Source of the DNA: Escherichia coli
Lineage (GTDB): Bacteria > Pseudomonadota > Gammaproteobacteria > Enterobacterales > Enterobacteriaceae
Length of the DNA stretch: 49,610 bases
Strand: one strand, 5' to 3'
NCBI GenBank assembly: GCA_036348995.1
Contig: GCA_036348995.1_4855.1
This document shows positions 1-49,610 of the stretch, in pieces (position 1 is the stretch's first letter; the number at the start of each line of letters is the position of its first letter). The translations under genes were made by a program, and so were the position numbers. A model generated the notes under the pieces. That model was given only the letters and a program-made list of their open reading frames with translations. It had not been told where the DNA came from and did not search any database.

Positions 1-127
1 CAAATATTCGGCGGGAAATGAATCAGCAAGCACCCATCCAAGATACACAGACATCGCCATTACCGGAATGAACACCAGAAACGCGACCATGCCAGTGCAA
101 GCGAAACCCAGCACATACATGATCATG
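1..127. repeat. terminal direct repeat, copy 1 (identical to 49484..49610)
   Basis: 127/127 nt identity between window start and end, read directly; implies circular or terminally redundant genome. Confidence 0.95.
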
Positions 128-7734: not shown

Positions 7735-8223
7735 TCATACTCCTGCTTCTTGCGTTTCGCTTTCCCCATGATTACCTCTTACATTGCGAAGAAGTGAATT
7801 AAACAGATTGCTCACGTTTACTTCCTGCTCCTGCCATGAGTAACGCCATAGCTTCTTGTGGTGGTCATAGCTTCGCGTCACATCGCCGTTATGAAACATG
7901 ATTCGGATGCGGCTTTTCACGATGCGATAATCAATGCCAGTGGCAGCGCTGATTTCTTTCACCTCTGCGCCAGCGCTATCAAGCAAATGACACTTAATTG
8001 CATCATCAATACCAGCGGCATCATCAGAGATGAAATATTTATACTGCCACTTCCCACCGCGAATCACTGACTTCTCTCGGCGAATGAAGCCAAGTGCGAG
8101 CATCTCATGCAAACGATGCGTTGTGGTGCTTGAATGCTTACCGCCGCAATGCTTTTCAATGTATGCTCGCGTTGCGCCAGGATGATTGAGAATCACGCGC
8201 ATGATTTGTGACTTATAGTCCAT
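7735..8223 (-). CDS. hypothetical protein, possible DNA-binding
   Basis: ORF track, start moved to internal Met (MDYKSQ...) after HNH stop; DNA-binding role is a guess. Confidence 0.35.
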   Translation of the reverse strand: MDYKSQIMRVILNHPGATRAYIEKHCGGKHSSTTTHRLHEMLALGFIRREKSVIRGGKWQYKYFISDDAAGIDDAIKCHLLDSAGAEVKEISAATGIDYRIVKSRIRIMFHNGDVTRSYDHHKKLWRYSWQEQEVNVSNLFNSLLRNVRGNHGESETQEAGV

Positions 8224-8734
8224 AATCGCGCTCCGATGCTGCCTGGTTGAAGTCGTCGACGGTGTAGAGGTGTCCGTGATTTTTGAATTTCCCTTGTTTT
8301 TCACTCCTGTACTTAATTAACGCATTAATAGCATCTTGCTTTGTGTCAAAGTGACCAATTGTTTTTCTCATGCAATCAGCACGCCATTTTCCTCTACATG
8401 AAACAAACCACACACCCTTGACGCCAGACCTATTGGTGCTTGGCTGTGGCTTATTCCATTCATTTTGTTGTCTTGTTGCCTTTCTCAGATTGCAAATTCT
8501 GTTGTCATCCTTTACACCGTTAATGTGATCTATTTCATGTTCAGGCCATTCACCGTAAACATAAAACCATGCCAATCTATGAGCCAATCTCTTTTTTCCT
8601 AGCAGCCTTATGTGTATATATCCCCTGGATGTTTTTGTTCCGCATGCATTACCGTTCTTTCTCCTGAACTCACCTGTGTCCGGATTATAGTCAATTAACT
8701 GCAATACAGTATCGTGATTAAGATCGCATTTCAT
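8213..8734 (-). CDS. HNH homing endonuclease with AP2-like domain
   Basis: EIDHINGVKDDNRICNLR HNH motif; GVKGVW...GKWRA AP2-like. Confidence 0.8.
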   Translation of the reverse strand: MKCDLNHDTVLQLIDYNPDTGEFRRKNGNACGTKTSRGYIHIRLLGKKRLAHRLAWFYVYGEWPEHEIDHINGVKDDNRICNLRKATRQQNEWNKPQPSTNRSGVKGVWFVSCRGKWRADCMRKTIGHFDTKQDAINALIKYRSEKQGKFKNHGHLYTVDDFNQAASERDYGL

Positions 8735-8970
8735 TAGTATTCACCCTCAAAATCACTATCTTTATAAGTAAACCCCCCTCTCGTATTCCATGACTTCACC
8801 GCCGAAGAGGCAACAAGGTAGTCATCTGTGCGCACATTACATGATGAGCAATACACATGAGATAAAACCAATTCATCGGACAGGTAAACCTCAAGCGAGC
8901 TGCAGAAAGGGCACTCCAGCAATCCTTCATCGTTCATTATCGGCATATGTGGTGCGCTCATTTTAACCAT
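8734..8970 (-). CDS. zinc-ribbon protein, Lar-like (restriction alleviation family) candidate
   Basis: CPFC...CSSC pattern in about 78 aa. Confidence 0.4.
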   Translation of the reverse strand: MVKMSAPHMPIMNDEGLLECPFCSSLEVYLSDELVLSHVYCSSCNVRTDDYLVASSAVKSWNTRGGFTYKDSDFEGEY

Positions 8971-11246: not shown

Positions 11247-11735
11247 TTATTTTTGTCTCCTTGTCAGTGATTCGTATTGCTTCTGGCAGGTCAATCCTGC
11301 TTCTCTTGCCTTGTCAGCATAATCTGCCAGTTGTCGATTTCTTTCGACAGATTTGCTGAGCACGTCGGAGAGCAAAACTCCGGTGTCTGCGGCTGGATTG
11401 CCAATGGACTCAGCGGTGGAATATCCGACGAGCTGCTTGCGGATGTTTGCGAGCTGTTGCTGCAACCTGCCAGACTTAGCAGCAGCATTGACAACATCAT
11501 TGCGCGCAGCATCAATCCTTTGCTGTGCGTCTGCCTGAATCTTTTGCAGTTCTGCATTGCGTCGTTGCTCCTCTTGTTCGTCTGCGGTCTTTTGTTCGGC
11601 GACTGCTTTTGCATATCCAGCGGCATATTGCTGTTCGCCGTAGCTGGATACTTTATTTGCCGCCCACAACACGCCAGCAGCAACAATTATAATAAGTGTC
11701 AGGGGTCGCCAGTATTTAGCGAGAATCGACATCAT
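11247..11735 (-). CDS. i-spanin (Rz-like)
   Basis: N-terminal TM, Q/A/R-rich coiled-coil; downstream of endolysin. Confidence 0.7.
   Translation of the reverse strand: MMSILAKYWRPLTLIIIVAAGVLWAANKVSSYGEQQYAAGYAKAVAEQKTADEQEEQRRNAELQKIQADAQQRIDAARNDVVNAAAKSGRLQQQLANIRKQLVGYSTAESIGNPAADTGVLLSDVLSKSVERNRQLADYADKAREAGLTCQKQYESLTRRQK
11291..11512 (-). CDS. o-spanin (Rz1-like lipoprotein) nested in the Rz frame
   Basis: LAGC lipobox then Pro-rich segment, embedded out of frame in Rz. Confidence 0.6.
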   Translation of the reverse strand: MLRAMMLSMLLLSLAGCSNSSQTSASSSSDIPPLSPLAIQPQTPEFCSPTCSANLSKEIDNWQIMLTRQEKQD

Positions 11736-11955
11736 TTCGCAGCCTCCGGTTTTCCTTCCTCATGCCGTGCATTTTGCCGAACATTGACAACACGAGCACG
11801 GAATAGCTTATCCCTTTGACTACCGAATCTGGTATCTCGGATTTCAGGTCATCTGGCATAAACATCCATACATGCGTCATGGAGTCAGGCCACAGCTCAA
11901 GGTACGAGCAAAATGAAAGCCAGACACCAATGAACCAGTTGCTTAGTTTTTTCAT
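11716..11955 (-). CDS. small membrane protein, possible holin
   Basis: two hydrophobic stretches; sits between endolysin and spanins. Confidence 0.3.
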   Translation of the reverse strand: MKKLSNWFIGVWLSFCSYLELWPDSMTHVWMFMPDDLKSEIPDSVVKGISYSVLVLSMFGKMHGMRKENRRLRNDVDSR

Positions 11956-12419
11956 GCCGCAGCTCCACCTGCGGCCTTATACACATCAATCAGCTTATCC
12001 AGTTTCTGCTCATGCTGACCATAACCAGCGCCCGGCAATGAAGCCCAGCGGGAACGGCACTTGTGAATAGCATCAGCGATGCGACCGGCCTCGATGTCGG
12101 CATTGGCTTTGCATTCGCGGATTAACTGCATTGCAATGGCATCCTGCGATGCAGGGGAGAAGTCCGGTAAACGCAACTGCTTTTTGTATGCGTCATAAAA
12201 CTTAGCCAGCACCTGATAGCGTCCGGCGGCAGTGGATTTGATGCCCAAATTAGGCAGGCTAATCAGCTTCCGTGGGTGATCGTAATAGTCGGTAAACAGT
12301 GAGCCACCAACAATCACATCATAGCCATGATTATTGGTTTTCTGTCGTCCGTTATCCGTGCCCTCGCTGTACGCCAGCATATCCAAAAACGCCTTCATGT
12401 TTTTGCTAATAGCCATACC
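11952..12419 (-). CDS. endolysin, lambda R-type lytic transglycosylase
   Basis: KAFLDMLAYSEGTDNGRQKTNNHGYDVIVGG...WASLPGAGYGQHE closely matches lambda R (from memory). Confidence 0.9.
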   Translation of the reverse strand, partial: GMAISKNMKAFLDMLAYSEGTDNGRQKTNNHGYDVIVGGSLFTDYYDHPRKLISLPNLGIKSTAAGRYQVLAKFYDAYKKQLRLPDFSPASQDAIAMQLIRECKANADIEAGRIADAIHKCRSRWASLPGAGYGQHEQKLDKLIDVYKAAGGAAA

Positions 12420-12684
12420 AGTAAACCTCTTTTTCAGCTTTGCGTTTTGCTTTGTCGCCAGTCTTCTCGCCCCACACGATGAAATGCGCAACAGCACATG
12501 AGAAACAGCGTAGATTGTGCTTCTTCAGAAGCGTTGATTTACGGAAAGTGTCAATACCAATGTCGGTGGCGAGGCTTGTCAGTGCGTCGAACTGATTCTG
12601 TGTTGTCTCGGTGGTGATGTAAGGCGATATATCCACGGTATCAGCGATTCCAAACGCATCTTTGCCGCGTTGCGATAGTTTCAT
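12406..12684 (-). CDS. hypothetical protein upstream of endolysin (not holin-like)
   Basis: ORF track; not hydrophobic. Confidence 0.35.
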   Translation of the reverse strand: MKLSQRGKDAFGIADTVDISPYITTETTQNQFDALTSLATDIGIDTFRKSTLLKKHNLRCFSCAVAHFIVWGEKTGDKAKRKAEKEVYWYGY

Positions 12685-35775: not shown

Positions 35776-39116
<3,341 letters not shown>

Positions 39117-41280: not shown

Positions 41281-43655
41281 TCTGTTGCTCTCCTGTTGGT
41301 ATTAAAGTTCCTTGAGATGGATTGACTCATTGGGCCGCCTTCATTCATATCGGATATAAATGTCTCAATAGTTATCGAGCCATCACCGTTATCAGTGGCT
41401 CTGCTTGTTGCGCTGGCATTGCTTGAATTATTGTAAACATTATTATAAACCACAACTCCGCCACCTCCACCGGAAATATCCTTATTGCTGATAACCTTTC
41501 CTGAGTTACCAGGTATCATGTATTGCCTGCCAGTGCTCGCCTGGAATATTTCTGGTGCGTTTCCCTCGCCAACTTCGTACATGCTTCCGGCGCTAACAGG
41601 ACCGCCATTCTTGCGCTTGCCAGCAATCCCCATCGCCAGCGCCCCAAGGACAGCACCTACACCAATTGCAGCCGCCCCTCCGAATGAACCGATTGATGCT
41701 ACGATTGCCGCTGGAGTCCATGCTGCAGTAGTGGTTGCTGCCGCCGCAGTGGATGCTGCTGTTGTGGTTGCCAGCCCTGCTGTTTGCGCCGCTGTGGTTG
41801 TCGCTGTGGCTGCAACCTGAGCAGTCTGCCCCATGACCGCAGATTTAACCCACTGCACGCCCATTTCAACAAAGCTGTTTACCAGAGAATTCAGCACCGT
41901 AGAGCCGAGGCTGCGCATGGCATCCTGAACGCTCATTGTTCCGGTAAGCAATCCGGTAATGCTGTTTGACGCTGTGCTCATCGCTGAATCAAGAGCAGTG
42001 CCGAACAGTTGCGCCCCGAGGCTTTGCTGCTGCCATTCAGCCCACATAGCATCCATTCGCTGCTGGCGATATTGTGCCTCAATTGCTGCGCGAGTCCGCT
42101 CAATCTCCGTGATTTTCTGCGGATATGCTGCGGCGTAGGCGTCAAGGTCAGCCATGCGTTGCTGATATTCACTATCAATGCCAGTAGTTGGCGACGCAAT
42201 GGCGCGCAATCCCTGATATGATTTTTCTACGCGCTGCTTTTCTTTCTCCGCAGCTGCCTGTTCCTTCAGTGCATTCTTCTGGTCCCAAATCTTAGCCGCG
42301 TACTCACCAGCCAGTTTTATTTGCTCCTGAGTGGCAGCCTTGCCAAGCGATTGTTGCGCGTTGAGAATTGCTTGTTCTCGGGATAGTTCGCTGGTAGATG
42401 TGGCATTGAGCATGGTTTGCTGGCGTAATTTTTCCAGCTTTTCAGCTACTGACTCAGCTTGCCGTTCTTCGGCGCTTTTTCCCTTTCCTTTTCCTTTTTT
42501 GTCTTTTGTTGGCGCTTTAGGCACTGTCAAATGCGCCTGAGCTTTTGCTGCTTCTCCTGTTGACTTAGTTACGGCATCCATATCTGAGACCAAAGTTGCA
42601 GCCTGATTTGCCACCGCCGCTATTGCCTGATTTTGTGCCGCCCATCCGTCAATGCCAACCCATGACCAAGTTCTAGCCCTGCGACTGAACATTTCGGCTG
42701 TTGACGTCAAATCAGAAATAACCTCTGCTGCACTTACAGTTTGACCAGTAAGTCTGTTTATTGCTGAAGTGATAGAATCAATAACAGAAACAAAAGTGGA
42801 GCTGGCTCCGGTTGCATCGTTTATGCTTGCTATCATTTTTGCAAATGATGTTTCAAGACTGCCAGTAGCCTGAGATATAGAGCGCGGTAGTTTTGCGAAC
42901 TCAGCATTGACGACGCTTGTTCTGTCCTGAATAGCGTTCAGCGCATCTTCTGCCGTCAGTTTTCCGTCGAGCATTCTGGCACGAAGTTCACCCATTGAAA
43001 TGCCAAGTCCAGCGGCTATCTGGCGTGCAAGTTCAGGCATCTGTTCAAGGATGGAGTTGAATTCTTCGGCGCGGATTGTGCCAGATGCTATTGATTGACC
43101 GAACTGACGTAATGCGTTCGCCATTTCTTCGGTTGATGACCCACCGATTCGACCTATTTTTTGCAGGGTATCTGTAAGGTTAAGAACCTGCGCATTTGTA
43201 GCGCCAGCCTCTTTCAGTGATGACGTCAATGTTTCCCACAGCTTCGTGGTATCACTCAGGCTTGCGCCAGTGGTTGAGGCGATATTTGTCAGCGAATTGA
43301 AGGTTTCCTTCGCGGTCTCAGCATCTCCTGTTAACCTTTTTATCCTTGCCTGTAGCTGCGTCATGTTATCAGCTATATCAAGGAAAGCCTTACCCCATCC
43401 AATGATTAATGACACTGAGATTGCGCCAGCAAGCATCGACATGCTGGTTTTAAGCCCTGAAGCTGCGCTGCCAGCATTCTTCATTCCGCTGCCAGCATTT
43501 CTGGCATTTTTATCCAGTTTACCAAGCGCACTTGTGGTTTTGTTGGTTGATGATTCAAGGTCATCCAAAGTCTTATTGGCTGTTGTCGCGCCAGCTTTCA
43601 GACCTTTAACATCCATCCCGACTTCATAGACAATTCCGCCGACTTCTTCAGCCAT
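41277..43655 (-). CDS. tail tape measure protein
   Basis: 792 aa, Ala/Gly/Gln-rich helical repeats, between chaperone-like and minor tail genes. Confidence 0.85.
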   Translation of the reverse strand: MAEEVGGIVYEVGMDVKGLKAGATTANKTLDDLESSTNKTTSALGKLDKNARNAGSGMKNAGSAASGLKTSMSMLAGAISVSLIIGWGKAFLDIADNMTQLQARIKRLTGDAETAKETFNSLTNIASTTGASLSDTTKLWETLTSSLKEAGATNAQVLNLTDTLQKIGRIGGSSTEEMANALRQFGQSIASGTIRAEEFNSILEQMPELARQIAAGLGISMGELRARMLDGKLTAEDALNAIQDRTSVVNAEFAKLPRSISQATGSLETSFAKMIASINDATGASSTFVSVIDSITSAINRLTGQTVSAAEVISDLTSTAEMFSRRARTWSWVGIDGWAAQNQAIAAVANQAATLVSDMDAVTKSTGEAAKAQAHLTVPKAPTKDKKGKGKGKSAEERQAESVAEKLEKLRQQTMLNATSTSELSREQAILNAQQSLGKAATQEQIKLAGEYAAKIWDQKNALKEQAAAEKEKQRVEKSYQGLRAIASPTTGIDSEYQQRMADLDAYAAAYPQKITEIERTRAAIEAQYRQQRMDAMWAEWQQQSLGAQLFGTALDSAMSTASNSITGLLTGTMSVQDAMRSLGSTVLNSLVNSFVEMGVQWVKSAVMGQTAQVAATATTTAAQTAGLATTTAASTAAAATTTAAWTPAAIVASIGSFGGAAAIGVGAVLGALAMGIAGKRKNGGPVSAGSMYEVGEGNAPEIFQASTGRQYMIPGNSGKVISNKDISGGGGGVVVYNNVYNNSSNASATSRATDNGDGSITIETFISDMNEGGPMSQSISRNFNTNRRATE

Positions 43656-44371
43656 TATGTATTCCTCGCTTTTTTCGCTTTGCGTTCAGCCAGTGCCTTC
43701 ATGCGCTCGCGGTCTGCTTTAGCCTGATCGTACTCTGCCGCACGTTCTTCTTTCGTTAACCCTTTCGGCTCTGGATATTTATTCTTAATCATCATCTGAA
43801 ACTCTGTCATGGACAGGTTTTCAGCCTCATCGCGCGTCATGTCGAAATGCGTGCGTGCTGAGATGATGTATTGCGACGCATGAAACTCGTTTGTGGTTTT
43901 CTTACCTTGCCCTTCCAGACGCTCAGGCACTTTGAGTGGGGATTTGCCAATGATGCCGTGCTGCATCAGGTTGCGTGCAATAATAATAATGTCACTCACT
44001 GGCATGATGCCTGGAACATATCGCACGCCGCGCGGTGTTGGCTTCCATCCGCCAATCAGCACAGAAACATCATCTTCACAGCATGACTGCATGACGATAT
44101 AGGCTGCACTCAGCACATGGCGACCATACACAGGCTTACTGATAGTCTTCATGACCTGCATCTGCGCACCAAATGGCAGGCATTCTACGTGCTGTAATGG
44201 CGCGACATAATCAATGCCATTGAGTCTGGCGTATATCTCGACGATTTCTTTTGGTGTGCCGATTTCATTCATGGCGCGGAATGATGGCTTGAAGAAAAAA
44301 CTCCTGTCAGAAAGCGAGATGCGCATCTCCCCGATTTCTGTTAGTGGCGTGCGATTGCTCATGTTTTGCAT
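43655..44371 (-). CDS. tail assembly chaperone (putative)
   Basis: position immediately upstream of tape measure. Confidence 0.35.
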   Translation of the reverse strand: MQNMSNRTPLTEIGEMRISLSDRSFFFKPSFRAMNEIGTPKEIVEIYARLNGIDYVAPLQHVECLPFGAQMQVMKTISKPVYGRHVLSAAYIVMQSCCEDDVSVLIGGWKPTPRGVRYVPGIMPVSDIIIIARNLMQHGIIGKSPLKVPERLEGQGKKTTNEFHASQYIISARTHFDMTRDEAENLSMTEFQMMIKNKYPEPKGLTKEERAAEYDQAKADRERMKALAERKAKKARNT

Positions 44372-44411
44372 CCTGAATTTGACTGATGTTGATTATATCA
44401 TCTCAGTGGTG

Positions 44412-44440
44412 TTGACACCTGCAAGGCGGTGATGTAGATT
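44412..44440 (+). promoter_or_regulatory. sigma70-like promoter TTGACA-N17-TAGATT
   Basis: exact spacing; GGTGATGTAGATT block. Confidence 0.55.
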
Positions 44441-44479
44441 CAAGTCATCGAAACGAGTGATGAATAAATGAGGTGAGTT

Positions 44480-44773
44480 ATGAAAATTAAAACGTTGATT
44501 GCATCAGTGCTATTTGCTTCCTCCTTTGCGGTAAGCGCAACCTCTGAGGTTTGCAAAAACATCGGAGAAATCGCCATGAACACTGCCGATGCTCGCGATA
44601 ACGGCATCAGTAAGAATCTTGCTGAGGTGGTAGTTAAGGGTTCCACAAAAAACAACGAATCAGCAGAAATAATTGGCCTTGCTATCGTAGAAATGGTTTA
44701 TGCACGCAAGGATATGACTAAAGAGCAATTGCGTGATGTATCTATTGCTTTGTGCGAAAAGAATGGCATGTAA
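44480..44773 (+). CDS. secreted/periplasmic small protein (signal peptide)
   Basis: N-terminal MKIKTLIASVLFASSFAVSA; SD AGGTGAG. Confidence 0.5.
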   Translation: MKIKTLIASVLFASSFAVSATSEVCKNIGEIAMNTADARDNGISKNLAEVVVKGSTKNNESAEIIGLAIVEMVYARKDMTKEQLRDVSIALCEKNGM

Positions 44774-44805
44774 TATAAACAAGTTATTAACAGTTGAGGT
44801 TAGCT

Positions 44806-45000
44806 ATGGACGTTGTTATTTTGTTGTTTTTCGCTGGATTGGTTATATTTGCTTATCTTCTCCCGTCATTTGTGGCATTGCAAAGAAAGCACACAAATAC
44901 GACTGCAATCTGCGTACTGAATATTCTTGTCGGTTGGAGTTTTATTGGATGGGTTGCAGCACTTGTTTGGGCATTAGTTAACAGTGGCGACAAGAAATGA
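44806..45000 (+). CDS. superinfection immunity (Imm)-like membrane protein
   Basis: two TM helices with ICVLNILVGWSFIGWVAALVWAL pattern; SD GAGGT. Confidence 0.5.
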   Translation: MDVVILLFFAGLVIFAYLLPSFVALQRKHTNTTAICVLNILVGWSFIGWVAALVWALVNSGDKK

Positions 45001-45140
45001 ACGAACAAACAAAAGCAGACCTGATTTTCTACACTGAATTGTATGTCGATGCAGGTTACGATTACGAAGAAGCAGAGCGCATGGCGAAAGATTTGCTTCG
45101 TGTGATTGGTGTGATTTTTGAAGAGGATAAGGTGATATGA
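44997..45140 (+). CDS. hypothetical small protein (47 aa)
   Basis: ATGA overlaps at both ends; hand translation. Confidence 0.3.
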   Translation: MNEQTKADLIFYTELYVDAGYDYEEAERMAKDLLRVIGVIFEEDKVI

Positions 45141-45322
45141 GCCAATGGATTAAGTGTAGTGAGAAGATGCCAGAGCCTTATGTGTACGTTCTTGTAACCG
45201 ATGGTTTTGTTGGCTGTGAGGTTATGCGTGTTAATTCAGATGGCTACTGGGGTCCTGCAAAAAGTTTATATCACGGTGATATCACCCACTGGATGCCACT
45301 TCCAGAACCACCACAAGAATAG
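45137..45322 (+). CDS. hypothetical small protein
   Basis: ORF track. Confidence 0.4.
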   Translation: MSQWIKCSEKMPEPYVYVLVTDGFVGCEVMRVNSDGYWGPAKSLYHGDITHWMPLPEPPQE

Positions 45323-45326
45323 AACA

Positions 45327-45352
45327 AAGCCCCTTTCGGGGCTTTTTCTTTA
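45327..45352. terminator. bidirectional intrinsic terminator
   Basis: hairpin AAAGCCCC-TTTC-GGGGCTTT plus T-run. Confidence 0.7.
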
Positions 45353-46069
45353 TCAGGATACAGTGCACGCCGTGCTGATAATAATTTCAGGGTCAGTAGA
45401 TGAGTCTGTCACCGTGACGGTATACACGCCAGCGGTAGGGCTTGCCAGAGATGCGCCAGATTCGCCTCCTACAACCACACCATCTTTGCGCCATACATAA
45501 GTGTAAGGAGAGACACCACCTTCAACAGCAACGGTTAACGGTCTGCCAGCAGTGCCAGTTGATGGCAGGTCGGTGGTGAATGCCAGAGGTTCAAGGCTTT
45601 CGACGGTAACGCTGTCAGAATCGTAAACCTTGAACTCAAGGCTACCAGTTACGATGTCGTTAGTGCCACCTTCATAGCTGATACTGGTGATGTTGCAGTA
45701 CGCAGTAACGATAGTCGCACCAGTCACCTGACGCACCCACAAGGAAGGCTGGCGACGCGCTTTCAGTTCAGTGGCGTAAATTTCAACCAGACGATGGAAA
45801 CCAAACTCATCGCTCGGGTCATTCTTGCGGATTTCAACCTCTGCACTGATGGTCATATCAGAGCTGGTAACGAGAGTGGAAACAAAGCCGCCAGTGGTAT
45901 CAGCTTCCGACGTGGTAGTCTGCGGGGAGTAGTCAACGCCTTTACTGGTGGTTGAGCCTAAATACTTCCAGTCTCCTGCTTCCGGAACTGCGTCGCCGCA
46001 CCCTTCAGCAAGGAACAGTCGGGTCATGCGACCGACCAGAACGCCTTTATCATTTGCACAAATAGCCAT
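45353..46069 (-). CDS. major tail protein with C-terminal Ig-like domain
   Basis: 238 aa; C-terminal GVYTVTVTD Big-like segment; position upstream of chaperone and tape measure. Confidence 0.65.
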   Translation of the reverse strand: MAICANDKGVLVGRMTRLFLAEGCGDAVPEAGDWKYLGSTTSKGVDYSPQTTTSEADTTGGFVSTLVTSSDMTISAEVEIRKNDPSDEFGFHRLVEIYATELKARRQPSLWVRQVTGATIVTAYCNITSISYEGGTNDIVTGSLEFKVYDSDSVTVESLEPLAFTTDLPSTGTAGRPLTVAVEGGVSPYTYVWRKDGVVVGGESGASLASPTAGVYTVTVTDSSTDPEIIISTACTVS

Positions 46070-46208: not shown

Positions 46209-46880
46209 ATGAACGCATTAATGAATGTTGGTAAAGTGCAAACCATGTCAAGCCGTGAGATTTCGGAGTTGACCGGGAAACGGCATGACAATGTTTTGGC
46301 TGACATACGAAAAATGTTAGCTGAAATTCAATCTCCTGAAAAGTTAGGAGATTACAAAGACAGCAGAGGGCGCACGTATCAAATGCTTCTTTTGGATAAA
46401 GAGGAAACGTTAATCCTGATTTCAGGGTACAGCATAAAAATGCGCGCGGCTATCATCCGGCGCTGGCAGGAACTGGAATCACAAGTGAGCAAACCAGCAC
46501 TACCTGATTTCACCAACCCGGCGGAAGCTGCGCGTGCGTGGGCCGCTGAGTACGAACAGAAATTAATTGCGCAGGAGAAGCTATCGATAGCAGCACCAAA
46601 AGCCGAGGTTTATGACCGCATCATCGACCGAAACAATCTTTACAATGCAACACAGGTTGCACAGAAGTTTGGACAGTCAGCAGTATGGCTAAACAGACAG
46701 CTTGAGCAATTCGATGTGTACAATCGCTCTGTTAAGCGTGGACGAGTCTTCCAGCAATGGTTCATCGACAAAGGATACGGCATTATGCGCGAGACAGAAA
46801 CAGGGCACTCACAAGCTATGTTTTATGCTGAAGGAGAGATGTGGATTATCGGCAAGCTAACTGACGAAGGCTTGATTTAA
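46209..46880 (+). CDS. antirepressor (Rha N-terminal domain + KilA-C/AntC domain)
   Basis: SSREISELTGKRHDNVLADIRKM; C-terminal AQKFGQSAVWLNRQL...WFIDKGYG. Confidence 0.75.
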   Translation: MNALMNVGKVQTMSSREISELTGKRHDNVLADIRKMLAEIQSPEKLGDYKDSRGRTYQMLLLDKEETLILISGYSIKMRAAIIRRWQELESQVSKPALPDFTNPAEAARAWAAEYEQKLIAQEKLSIAAPKAEVYDRIIDRNNLYNATQVAQKFGQSAVWLNRQLEQFDVYNRSVKRGRVFQQWFIDKGYGIMRETETGHSQAMFYAEGEMWIIGKLTDEGLI

Positions 46881-46888
46881 CATCATAG

Positions 46889-46917
46889 TTGACAGTGATT
46901 ATTTTGTGGTGTAGATT
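46889..46917 (+). promoter_or_regulatory. sigma70-like promoter TTGACA-N17-TAGATT driving leader and tRNA
   Basis: exact consensus spacing; no terminator between it and the tRNA. Confidence 0.55.
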
Positions 46918-47287: not shown

Positions 47288-47364
47288 GGACGCGTAGCTT
47301 AATTGGTTAAAGCAACCGAATCATAATCGGATGATTGAAGGTTCAAATCCGTCCGTGTCCACCA
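47288..47364 (+). tRNA. tRNA with anticodon CAU (Met or Ile2-type), CCA encoded
   Basis: hand-folded cloverleaf: 7-bp acceptor stem, D-arm GCTT/AAGC, anticodon loop ATCATAA, T-loop TTCAAAT. Confidence 0.75.
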
Positions 47365-49192: not shown

Positions 49193-49609
49193 TTATAGAT
49201 TTGAATCAGCGAAAAAACAATGGCGACCACGCCAAGAATAATGTCCAATTTCGCCGCCCCATTTAAAAGTGATGGAAAGGATGAACAGATGGATGCCGAT
49301 AATAATAAATGCGTACTGCGCATGAAGCGGCGTTTCTACAGGCGTGATAAATTCCCATACGAATGACTCTATCGCAACCAGCCATTCGTAAAGGCTCATT
49401 GTCAGCACGCAGAGCGCCATCTTTGTACTTTTGCGCAGTGCAATAGCCGGGAACAACCAGACCATAGACTGCGCAAGGTAATACAAATATTCGGCGGGAA
49501 ATGAATCAGCAAGCACCCATCCAAGATACACAGACATCGCCATTACCGGAATGAACACCAGAAACGCGACCATGCCAGTGCAAGCGAAACCCAGCACATA
49601 CATGATCAT
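49193..49609 (-). CDS. multi-pass membrane protein, 5-prime end runs off the window into the terminal repeat
   Basis: 3-4 hydrophobic segments; in copy 1 an upstream in-frame ATG lies at 148-150. Confidence 0.4.
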   Translation of the reverse strand: MIMYVLGFACTGMVAFLVFIPVMAMSVYLGWVLADSFPAEYLYYLAQSMVWLFPAIALRKSTKMALCVLTMSLYEWLVAIESFVWEFITPVETPLHAQYAFIIIGIHLFILSITFKWGGEIGHYSWRGRHCFFADSNL

Positions 49610-49610
49610 G
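49484..49610. repeat. terminal direct repeat, copy 2 (identical to 1..127)
   Basis: exact 127-nt match to window start. Confidence 0.95.

What the first reader, a model, noticed from the sequence alone, without database searches (positions are those of the whole stretch)
44412..45352. Superinfection-exclusion moron inserted antisense between major tail and chaperone genes
A self-contained plus-strand cassette (TTGACA-N17-TAGATT promoter, four small genes, hairpin terminator) interrupts the minus-strand tail operon. It encodes a signal-peptide protein followed by a two-helix membrane protein whose pattern (NILVGW..IGWVAALVWAL) resembles the Imm superinfection-immunity family. That combination suggests a periplasm/inner-membrane block to DNA entry by competing phages, analogous to T4 Imm/Sp.
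Basis: partly seen in the sequence, partly recalled or inferred. Interest (0 to 1): 0.6.

Follow-up and report, generated by a model that had tools for sequence, protein, structure and literature searches.

The report
T4 Imm-like gene cassette in a siphovirus
The cassette is real, and its two-helix membrane protein is a true relative of the phage T4 Imm protein that blocks entry of a second phage's DNA, but the identical protein is already annotated that way in public phage genomes, so the finding is correct and ordinary.

Summary
A plus-strand unit lies between the minus-strand major tail protein gene and the DUF6246/tape-measure genes. It has a TTGACA-N17-TAGATT promoter (44412-44440), four small genes and a hairpin terminator (45326-45345).

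Gene 2 (64 aa) is a member of Pfam Imm_superinfect (65.9 bits, cut-off 27.9). It aligns without gaps to T4 Imm at 36% identity. It is 100% identical to the protein annotated "imm" in Escherichia phage Sa179lw.

The window is a complete 49.5-kb virulent siphovirus of the Skatevirus cluster.

Three parts of the interpretation need correction:
- **Not a recent insertion.** The slot, its promoter and its terminator are conserved across the whole clade, out to Klebsiella and Vibrio phages. Only the gene content varies.
- **Gene 1 is not a Spackle relative.** The exported 97-aa protein shows no sequence or fold match to T4 Spackle. It belongs to a small separate family with invariant C..RD..C residues.
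- **Genes 1 and 2 are independent.** Relatives carry either one without the other.

No exclusion phenotype has been tested in this clade. The most likely function is an inner-membrane block of DNA entry by superinfecting phages, inferred from homology only. Interest is low.

The parts
44412..44440 (+). Sigma-70-type promoter of the cassette (TTGACA, 17-nt spacer, TAGATT)
   Evidence: Consensus scan gives 10/12 matches. Both hexamers are invariant in 11 of 11 related phages, including Klebsiella and Vibrio phages whose remaining intergenic sequence is 39-43% identical.
44480..44773 (+). ORF1: 97-aa exported protein. Signal peptide with predicted cleavage after VSA at residue 20. Mature part of about 77 aa forms four helices and has two invariant cysteines (C25, C92) and an invariant R39-D40.
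   Evidence: phrog_2315, E 1.4e-18, no Pfam family. AlphaFold2 model has pLDDT 82-93 over the mature part. The family alignment shows the invariant C, RD and C. Substitutions fall mostly on third codon positions. It is not Spackle.
44806..45000 (+). ORF2: 64-aa Imm-family (superinfection immunity) membrane protein. Two-helix hairpin with a short basic loop (QRKHTNTT).
   Evidence: Pfam PF14373, 65.9 bits against a 27.9 cut-off. phrog_1039 'immunity to superinfection'. 36% identical to T4 Imm. 100% identical to the Sa179lw 'imm' product. Kyte-Doolittle windows and the AlphaFold2 model show helices 2-28 and 32-63.
44997..45140 (+). ORF3: 47-aa acidic protein (pI 4.2) of unknown function, translationally coupled to Imm (ATGA overlap). 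It is the one gene found in the slot of every relative examined.
   Evidence: phrog_17424, E 4.7e-36. Found in 205 phage records: 95-98% identical within the Skatevirus cluster, about 60% in Klebsiella and Vibrio phages. Substitution pattern 0/0/9 against Skate.
45137..45322 (+). ORF4: 61-aa DUF551 protein. The N- and C-terminal motifs are conserved; the middle is hypervariable among relatives.
   Evidence: Pfam PF04448, E 1.6e-15. Translations of the relatives' genes were compared. The homologue is deleted in the viable mutant seszw_290L.
45326..45345 (.). Bidirectional intrinsic-terminator hairpin. It closes the cassette on the + strand and follows the major tail protein gene on the - strand.
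   Evidence: Terminator scan finds it on both strands. Fold energy -15.5 kcal/mol, z = -3.5. Conserved in 11 of 11 relatives with one compensatory pair change.
44392..44400 (-). Extended -10 promoter element (TGATATAAT) on the minus strand, 29 nt upstream of the DUF6246 start codon. With the cassette promoter it forms a divergent pair.
   Evidence: A TGnTATAAT motif is present at the same distance from the start codon in 12 of 12 genomes, including the Klebsiella and Vibrio phages. Its function is inferred, not shown.
43655..44371 (-). Flanking gene: 238-aa DUF6246 protein directly upstream of the tape measure gene, in the position of a tail assembly chaperone.
   Evidence: Pfam PF19759, E 1.1e-72; phrog_791. 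One relative annotates it as a tail assembly chaperone (H67).
45353..46069 (-). Flanking gene: major tail protein with a C-terminal Ig-like domain.
   Evidence: phrog_853, E 1.1e-87. Annotated as major tail or tail tube protein in relatives.

Best explanation
The cassette is the accessory-gene slot of a virulent Skatevirus-type siphovirus. It lies at the boundary between two tail transcription units. One unit ends at the terminator after the major tail protein gene. The other probably starts at a minus-strand extended -10 promoter in front of the DUF6246 and tape-measure genes. The cassette is read in the opposite direction from its own host-type promoter, so it can be expressed independently of the tail genes, presumably early.

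Its functional centre is a 64-aa homologue of T4 Imm. By analogy, this two-helix inner-membrane protein alters the cytoplasmic membrane of the infected cell. DNA ejected by a later-arriving phage of the same or a related type then fails to cross the membrane and is lost in the periplasm.

These phages use the abundant O-antigen as their only receptor. The BASEL authors argue that such a receptor probably cannot be fully modified within a lytic cycle. A block at the entry step would therefore be the practical form of exclusion; this step is my inference.

The exported ORF1 protein, the 47-aa ORF3 and the DUF551 protein are separate accessory modules of unknown function that share the slot.

Shown here: the anatomy, the conservation, the family membership, and that the promoter and ORF4 are dispensable in a close relative. 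Inferred: early expression, membrane location and the exclusion activity.
For: - Family membership: Pfam PF14373 above the gathering score; phrog_1039; ungapped 36% identity to T4 Imm across both helices and the loop; tblastn hit on the T4 imm locus (confirmed as imm). The T4 record states the function of imm: DNA of superinfecting phage is left in the periplasm.
- Shape: two-helix hairpin.
- Purifying selection: Imm shows 0/0/10 substitutions by codon position.
- Promoter and terminator are conserved well beyond the background.
- The phage is virulent: no match in 5,426 complete E. coli genomes. The BASEL paper describes the Skatevirus cluster as small siphoviruses that depend on O-antigen through a single tailspike, and notes that complete modification of so abundant a receptor during a lytic infection is probably futile.
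- Accessory nature: lower G+C. In the viable genome-reduced mutants of phage seszw, one has lost the -10 element of this promoter and another has lost the DUF551 gene.
- A separate lysis cassette exists at 11253-12684, so Imm is not the phage's annotated holin.
Against: - No experiment on any Imm homologue outside the T-even phages turned up in the papers I could search.
- Identity to T4 Imm is only 36% over 53 residues of a largely hydrophobic protein. T4 is a myovirus with a very different entry apparatus, so the molecular target need not be the same.
- Some close relatives lack Imm altogether (Seszw_1, Vi II-E1). It is therefore not needed for the lifestyle.
- Timing of expression is inferred only from a promoter consensus.
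- T4 Imm itself has no known molecular mechanism.
Confidence: 0.6

Rival explanations
1. Two-layer Imm/Spackle-like system. The exported ORF1 protein acts in the periplasm as a functional analogue of T4 Spackle, inhibiting a wall-degrading or penetration activity of incoming tails. Imm blocks the inner membrane step. The two work as a pair.
For: - ORF1 has the same gross format as Spackle: 97-aa precursor, signal peptide, mature helical bundle of about 76 aa with two cysteines that are invariant across the family.
- It sits directly upstream of Imm under one promoter.
- The tail carries an NlpC/P60 wall-hydrolase-type domain that could be a target.
Against: - No sequence relation to Spackle: hhalign probability 0.5%.
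- ORF1 and Imm occur without each other in close relatives.
- In Klebsiella phage ZC2 the ORF1 homologue lies beside the lysis genes, far from the slot.
- No lysozyme domain was found in the tail proteins.
Confidence: 0.15
2. Envelope protection rather than exclusion. The Imm homologue stabilises the inner membrane of the infected cell against damage from many secondary adsorptions (lysis from without, 'secondary traumatisation'). This protects burst size, and any exclusion of DNA is a by-product.
For: [quoted passage not shown] It suggests Imm may prevent membrane damage by secondary adsorptions.
Against: - The same data fit exclusion equally well.
- No information exists for siphoviruses.
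- The T4 genome annotation and the Spackle paper describe Imm as an exclusion factor.
Confidence: 0.15
3. Lysis-timing regulator. The small two-helix protein acts as a holin or antiholin-like factor rather than against incoming phages.
For: - The same review notes that Imm 'reportedly molecularly resembles a holin'.
- Small two-helix membrane proteins are typical of that class.
Against: - The phage has its own endolysin-holin-spanin cassette more than 30 kb away.
- The gene lies under a conserved host-type promoter at a tail-operon boundary, not with the lysis genes.
- Family membership points to Imm.
Confidence: 0.05

Closest known systems
Phage T4 Imm (gene imm, 83 aa; Pfam PF14373 Imm_superinfect)
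   Same: - Homologous: 36% identity, ungapped, over the region holding both hydrophobic helices and the basic loop.
- Passes the Pfam gathering score.
- Encoded by a virulent phage.
- Preceded by a host-type promoter, consistent with early expression as for T4 imm. That T4 imm is an early gene is from my own knowledge.
   Different: - 64 aa instead of 83: a shorter N-terminus and no extended C-terminal tail.
- Carried by an O-antigen-dependent siphovirus rather than a contractile-tailed T-even phage, so the excluded entry machinery must differ.
- Lies antisense inside the tail gene region instead of among early DNA-metabolism genes.
- No phenotype data.
The same cassette in published Skatevirus-cluster genomes (Skate MH321493, Sa179lw MH023293, Akira, Sf11, BASEL phages Bas77-81)
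   Same: - Same position, promoter, terminator and gene order.
- About 90-95% DNA identity.
- The Imm protein is identical to that of Sa179lw.
- Already annotated as 'superinfection immunity protein' or 'imm', and filed under the 'moron' functional category in Bas77.
   Different: - Only the fourth gene differs (a DUF551 protein with a different middle part; some relatives carry an extra NinX/DUF2591 gene).
- Nothing else in the cassette differs in kind.
Phage T4 Spackle (gp61.3), periplasmic inhibitor of the gp5 tail lysozyme
   Same: - ORF1 shares the format only: 97-aa precursor, signal peptide, small helical mature protein with a cysteine pair.
- Co-located with an Imm gene.
   Different: - No detectable sequence or structural relationship.
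- In T4 the sp and imm genes are about 6 kb apart.
- ORF1 is not consistently linked to Imm.
- No tail lysozyme was detected here.
Morons of temperate phages (independent promoter-gene-terminator units between late genes; concept of Hendrix and colleagues, cited from my own knowledge)
   Same: - Own promoter and terminator.
- Lower G+C than the flanks.
- Sits between two late structural genes.
- Content varies between relatives.
- Parts are dispensable in the laboratory.
   Different: - The carrier is a virulent phage, so there is no prophage expression.
- The slot itself is ancestral and always occupied. Only its contents are exchanged.

Membership tests
Imm_superinfect / T4 Imm family (PF14373) | Scores above the curated Pfam gathering threshold | tested here: met
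   65.9 bits against a 27.9 cut-off, E 3e-18, covering profile positions 2-42 of 42. PHROG phrog_1039 'immunity to superinfection', E 1e-23.
Imm_superinfect / T4 Imm family (PF14373) | Direct similarity to the founding member, T4 Imm | tested here: met
   BLASTP: 19/53 identical, no gaps, pairwise E 6e-12. tblastn of the phage collection hits T4 record M37159 at ORF 42.1, which is imm: E 3e-4 against 2.3 Gb.
Imm_superinfect / T4 Imm family (PF14373) | Small protein with two hydrophobic helices joined by a short basic loop | tested here: met
   Kyte-Doolittle windows above 1.6 over residues 1-21 and 39-59. AlphaFold2 model has helices 2-28 and 32-63, pLDDT 83. Loop sequence QRKHTNTT.
Imm_superinfect / T4 Imm family (PF14373) | Located in the cytoplasmic membrane | not testable with these tools
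   Needs fractionation or reporter fusions.
Imm_superinfect / T4 Imm family (PF14373) | Expressed early in infection | tested here: inconclusive
   A conserved host-type promoter precedes the cassette. No transcript data are available.
Imm_superinfect / T4 Imm family (PF14373) | Prevents DNA of superinfecting phage from entering the cytoplasm | not testable with these tools
   Requires plating-efficiency and DNA-entry assays. No such data for this clade were found in the literature searches.
T4 Spackle (for ORF1) | Sequence similarity to Spackle | tested here: not met
   hhalign of the ORF1 family profile against T4 Sp: probability 0.5%, 8 aligned columns. phmmer of ORF1 against PDB sequences gives no Spackle hit at E up to 10.
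T4 Spackle (for ORF1) | Spackle fold | tested here: not met
T4 Spackle (for ORF1) | Exported small helical protein with a disulfide pair | tested here: met
   Signal-peptide-like N-terminus with a VSA motif. The Vi II-E1 homologue is annotated with SignalP probability 1.000. The model has four helices. C25 and C92 are invariant. This is a resemblance of format, not membership.
T4 Spackle (for ORF1) | Inhibits a tail-associated lysozyme | not testable with these tools
   No lysozyme domain was found in the tail proteins by Pfam. Only an NlpC/P60 domain is present, at 38174-38761.
Moron (independent transcription unit inserted in a late operon) | Own promoter and terminator, transcribed independently of the neighbouring genes | tested here: met
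   Both elements are present and conserved, and the unit is in antisense orientation. Their activity is inferred.
Moron (independent transcription unit inserted in a late operon) | Composition differs from the flanking genes | tested here: met
   37-42% G+C inside the cassette against 47-52% outside.
Moron (independent transcription unit inserted in a late operon) | Present in some related genomes and absent in others, leaving the flanking genes adjacent | tested here: not met
   The slot is occupied in all 12 relatives examined. Individual genes (ORF1, Imm, NinX, HNH) come and go, but the major tail protein and DUF6246 genes are never adjacent.
DUF551 (for ORF4) | Scores above the Pfam gathering threshold | tested here: met
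   PF04448: 58.2 bits against a 22 cut-off.

The most novel reading that the evidence does not exclude
The exported ORF1 family may be a new class of periplasmic phage-against-phage or envelope-targeting factor. Its features are a signal peptide, a helical domain of about 76 aa, and invariant Cys...Arg-Asp...Cys. Only 22 cluster representatives were found among 1.8 billion proteins, and fold relatives occur among uncharacterised exported proteins of Burkholderia, Xanthomonas, Bordetella and Pseudomonas phages. It would work like Spackle without being related to it. The slot framed by a conserved promoter and terminator would then be a dedicated exchange site for exclusion genes in O-antigen-dependent siphoviruses. 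The universally present 47-aa ORF3 would be its fixed component.
Probability: 0.12. Interest if true: 0.5.

Novelty: already known. Interest (0 to 1): 0.15.

Why it matters
It matters little as a discovery. The gene is a routine, already annotated homologue of T4 Imm in a well-sampled group of virulent Salmonella, Escherichia and Shigella siphoviruses.

It has some practical relevance. These phages are used in biocontrol and in cocktails, and an entry-blocking protein made by one member could interfere with others in a mixture.

No Imm homologue outside the T-even phages appears to have been tested in the literature I could search. The BASEL phages Bas77-81 carry the same cassette and grow on E. 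coli K-12 with restored O-antigen, so they offer an easy system for a first test.

The conserved promoter-terminator frame with exchangeable contents, and the uncharacterised exported ORF1 family, are minor descriptive additions.

Tried and rejected
- ORF1, ORF3 and ORF4 in NCBIfam and PADLOC: no significant family. Imm gave only sub-threshold noise (YobI, 2TM-TIR).
- Prophage origin: no match in complete E. coli genomes.
- Imm as the phage's holin: rejected because a complete lysis cassette lies elsewhere.
- Recent insertion: rejected by comparing the slot across 12 relatives.
- AlphaFold database fold search: the library was unavailable.
- The original T4 Imm papers (PMC237878, PMC250924) are not held. 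Statements on T4 Imm topology were therefore left out.
- The supplementary tables of the seszw genome-reduction paper are not held. I used the deposited mutant genomes instead.
- A first literature search was too broad to be useful, and one had a malformed term.

Full report
**What is there**

The window is a complete circular assembly of a phage genome of about 49.5 kb. Its first 127 bases are repeated exactly at 49484-49610. It is about 90% identical over long stretches to Shigella phage Sf11, Escherichia phages Sa179lw and ECO95, and other members of the Skatevirus cluster. It has no counterpart in 5,426 complete E. coli genomes. The BASEL collection paper describes this cluster as small siphoviruses that depend on O-antigen through a single tailspike.

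- a TTGACA-17-TAGATT promoter-like site;
- four short ORFs, the first two preceded by a Shine-Dalgarno sequence and the last two overlapping the preceding stop codon (ATGA);
- a GC-rich hairpin followed by a T-run.

The cassette runs opposite to its neighbours. On one side is the major tail protein gene (45353-46069, phrog_853). On the other is a DUF6246 gene (43655-44371), which directly precedes the tape measure gene.

**Is it more than chance?**

A promoter-like match of this quality is common by chance: 5 were found against 4.0 expected. Conservation settles the matter.
- In an alignment of 11 related phages both hexamers are invariant. In Klebsiella phage VLCpiS13d and Vibrio phage pYD38-A they are 12/12 identical, while the rest of the intergenic region is only 39-43% identical.
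- The terminator hairpin is present in all 11. In the two distant phages one G:C pair is flipped to C:G on both arms. It folds at -15.5 kcal/mol, z = -3.5.
- Substitutions against relatives fall overwhelmingly on third codon positions. By codon position: ORF1 4/2/15, Imm 0/0/10 and ORF3 0/0/9. Even the 47-codon ORF is a real gene under purifying selection.

**What the genes are**

*ORF2 (64 aa)*
- It passes the Pfam gathering score for Imm_superinfect: 65.9 bits against 27.9. It also matches PHROG 1039, 'immunity to superinfection'.
- It aligns without gaps to T4 Imm at 36% identity over the 53 residues that hold both hydrophobic helices and the basic loop. A tblastn search of the phage collection reaches the T4 imm locus directly.
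- The model is a two-helix hairpin.
- It is 100% identical to the protein annotated 'imm: immunity protein' in Sa179lw. The gene is annotated 'superinfection immunity protein' in Skate, Akira and Bas77-81, and Bas77 files it under the 'moron' category.
- Homologues occur in 1,792 phage records: T-even phages, Jersey-like and G7C-like phages, mycobacteriophages and others.

*ORF4* is a DUF551 protein.

*ORF3* has only a PHROG of unknown function.

*ORF1* has no Pfam family.

**ORF1 is not Spackle**

- T4 Sp is also a 97-aa precursor whose mature 75-aa form is a disulfide-bonded helical bundle.
- The ORF1 family profile does not align to Sp: hhalign probability 0.5%.
- An AlphaFold2 model of ORF1 has four helices, with pLDDT 82-93 over the mature part.
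- In the viral structure library its relatives are uncharacterised exported proteins or lipoproteins of phages of Burkholderia, Xanthomonas, Bordetella and Pseudomonas.
- An exhaustive profile search of 1.8 billion representative proteins gave only 22 hits. Aligned together, they share invariant C25, R39, D40 and C92.
- The 'exported phage protein' VIP0031 of Salmonella phage Vi II-E1 is a distant member of the family.

**The slot is old and modular**

Every relative examined has an antisense cassette at this position, but the contents differ.

| Contents of the slot | Phages |
|---|---|
| ORF1 + Imm + ORF3 + variable genes | window, Skate, Sa179lw, Bas77 |
| Imm + ORF3 + variable genes | IME207, 6947, VSt472 |
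| ORF1 + ORF3 + DUF551-like gene | Seszw_1 |
| Distant ORF1 + ORF3 + small ORF | Vi II-E1, CHRF_10023.1 |
| Imm (99 aa, 52% identical) + ORF3-like + HNH + DUF7740 | Vibrio phage pYD38-A |
| ORF3-like + NinX + others | Klebsiella phage VLCpiS13d |

- ORF1 and Imm are therefore independent modules.
- ORF3 is the constant gene of the slot.
- Imm was probably already in the slot in the common ancestor with Roufvirus.
- In Klebsiella phage ZC2 the ORF1 homologue sits beside the lysis genes instead.
- The cassette has lower G+C than its flanks. This fits accessory, exchangeable genes.

**Transcriptional setting**

On the minus strand an extended -10 element (TGATATAAT, 44400 to 44392) lies 29 nt upstream of the DUF6246 start codon. 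The motif is present at the same distance in all 12 genomes. The hairpin also reads as a terminator for the major tail protein gene. The cassette therefore occupies a natural boundary between two tail transcription units and diverges from the second one. This is inferred from sequence only.

**Experimental hints from public records**

About 70 deposited genomes of phage seszw are wild type or CRISPR-driven genome-reduced mutants (paper PMC9825161).
- Nearly all keep the cassette.
- Clone seszw_290L has lost the DUF551-type gene.
- Clone seszw_180S carries a 45-bp deletion that removes the -10 hexamer and the 5' leader of the cassette.
- Both clones are viable. At least the promoter and ORF4 are therefore dispensable in the laboratory, as expected for accessory genes.
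- seszw has no imm gene, so these mutants say nothing about Imm itself.

**How it most likely works**

By homology, the 64-aa protein inserts in the inner membrane soon after infection. It prevents DNA from later-arriving phages from crossing that membrane, which is the role recorded for T4 imm.

The BASEL authors note that receptor masking is probably futile for phages that use the very abundant O-antigen. A block at the entry step is then the plausible alternative; that link is my inference.

The phage has a separate endolysin-holin-spanin cassette at 11253-12684. This argues against a lysis role for Imm.

I give this explanation a confidence of about 0.6, for three reasons:
- no Imm homologue outside the T-even phages has been tested in the literature I could search;
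- identity to T4 Imm is modest;
- the entry machinery of a siphovirus differs from that of T4.

Rivals:
- an Imm plus ORF1 two-layer system (0.15);
- membrane protection against secondary adsorption (0.15);
- a lysis-timing role (0.05).

**Verdict**

The 'inserted moron' and 'Sp-like partner' parts are not supported. The feature is already annotated in close relatives. Interest is low (0.15).

Noticed in passing
window 1-127 and 49484-49610: The first 127 bases are repeated exactly at the end of the window. This looks like the overlap of a circular assembly, so the window is a complete phage genome of about 49,483 bp.
   Followed up: yes
window 46209-46880 (+), 46889-46917 (+), 47288-47364 (+): A second antisense island lies upstream of the major tail protein gene. 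It holds a Rha/ANT-type antirepressor gene in this virulent phage. Next comes a second exact TTGACA-17-TAGATT promoter-like site, then a tRNA-Met gene. Vi II-E1 and CHRF_10023.1 also carry an antirepressor here; Skate instead has small ORFs and a tRNA-Ile.
   Followed up: partly
window 45137-45322 (+) and homologues in L001, L002, L009, L011-L014: The DUF551 protein has nearly invariant ends (MSQWIKCSERMPE... and ...THWMPLPEPPQE). Its middle differs completely in sequence and length (60-88 aa overall) between phages that are otherwise about 90% identical. This suggests cassette-like exchange or diversifying selection.
   Followed up: partly
window 44997-45140 (+): The 47-aa acidic ORF3 is the only gene found in the slot of every relative examined and is its most conserved one: 95-98% identical in the Skatevirus cluster, about 60% in Klebsiella and Vibrio phages. 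It is retained in the genome-reduced seszw mutants listed by the searches. Its function is unknown.
   Followed up: partly
window 44392-44400 (-): An extended -10 promoter element (TGATATAAT) lies 29 nt upstream of the DUF6246 start codon and is conserved in 12 of 12 genomes. It implies that the tail genes downstream of the major tail protein have their own promoter, divergent from the cassette promoter.
   Followed up: partly
L016 (MZ375330.1, seszw_180S) 309-373; L015 (MZ375351.1, seszw_290L): Two viable laboratory mutants of the relative seszw carry deletions in this cassette. One is a 45-bp deletion between short AGGTG repeats that removes the -10 hexamer and the leader. The other is a clean loss of the DUF551-type gene.
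   Followed up: yes
window 11952-12684 (-); Bas77 (L017) 8200-8932: The endolysin is encoded as two overlapping ORFs: 92 aa carrying a partial Phage_lysozyme domain, plus a second ORF of 154 aa in Bas77 (181 aa as listed in the window). The arrangement is the same in the window and in Bas77. It could be a split gene, a frameshift or a programmed event.
   Followed up: no
L006 (Klebsiella phage ZC2) 2507-2797: In Roufvirus-like Klebsiella phages the ORF1-family exported protein is not in the tail slot. It is transcribed divergently from the endolysin-holin-spanin cassette.
   Followed up: no
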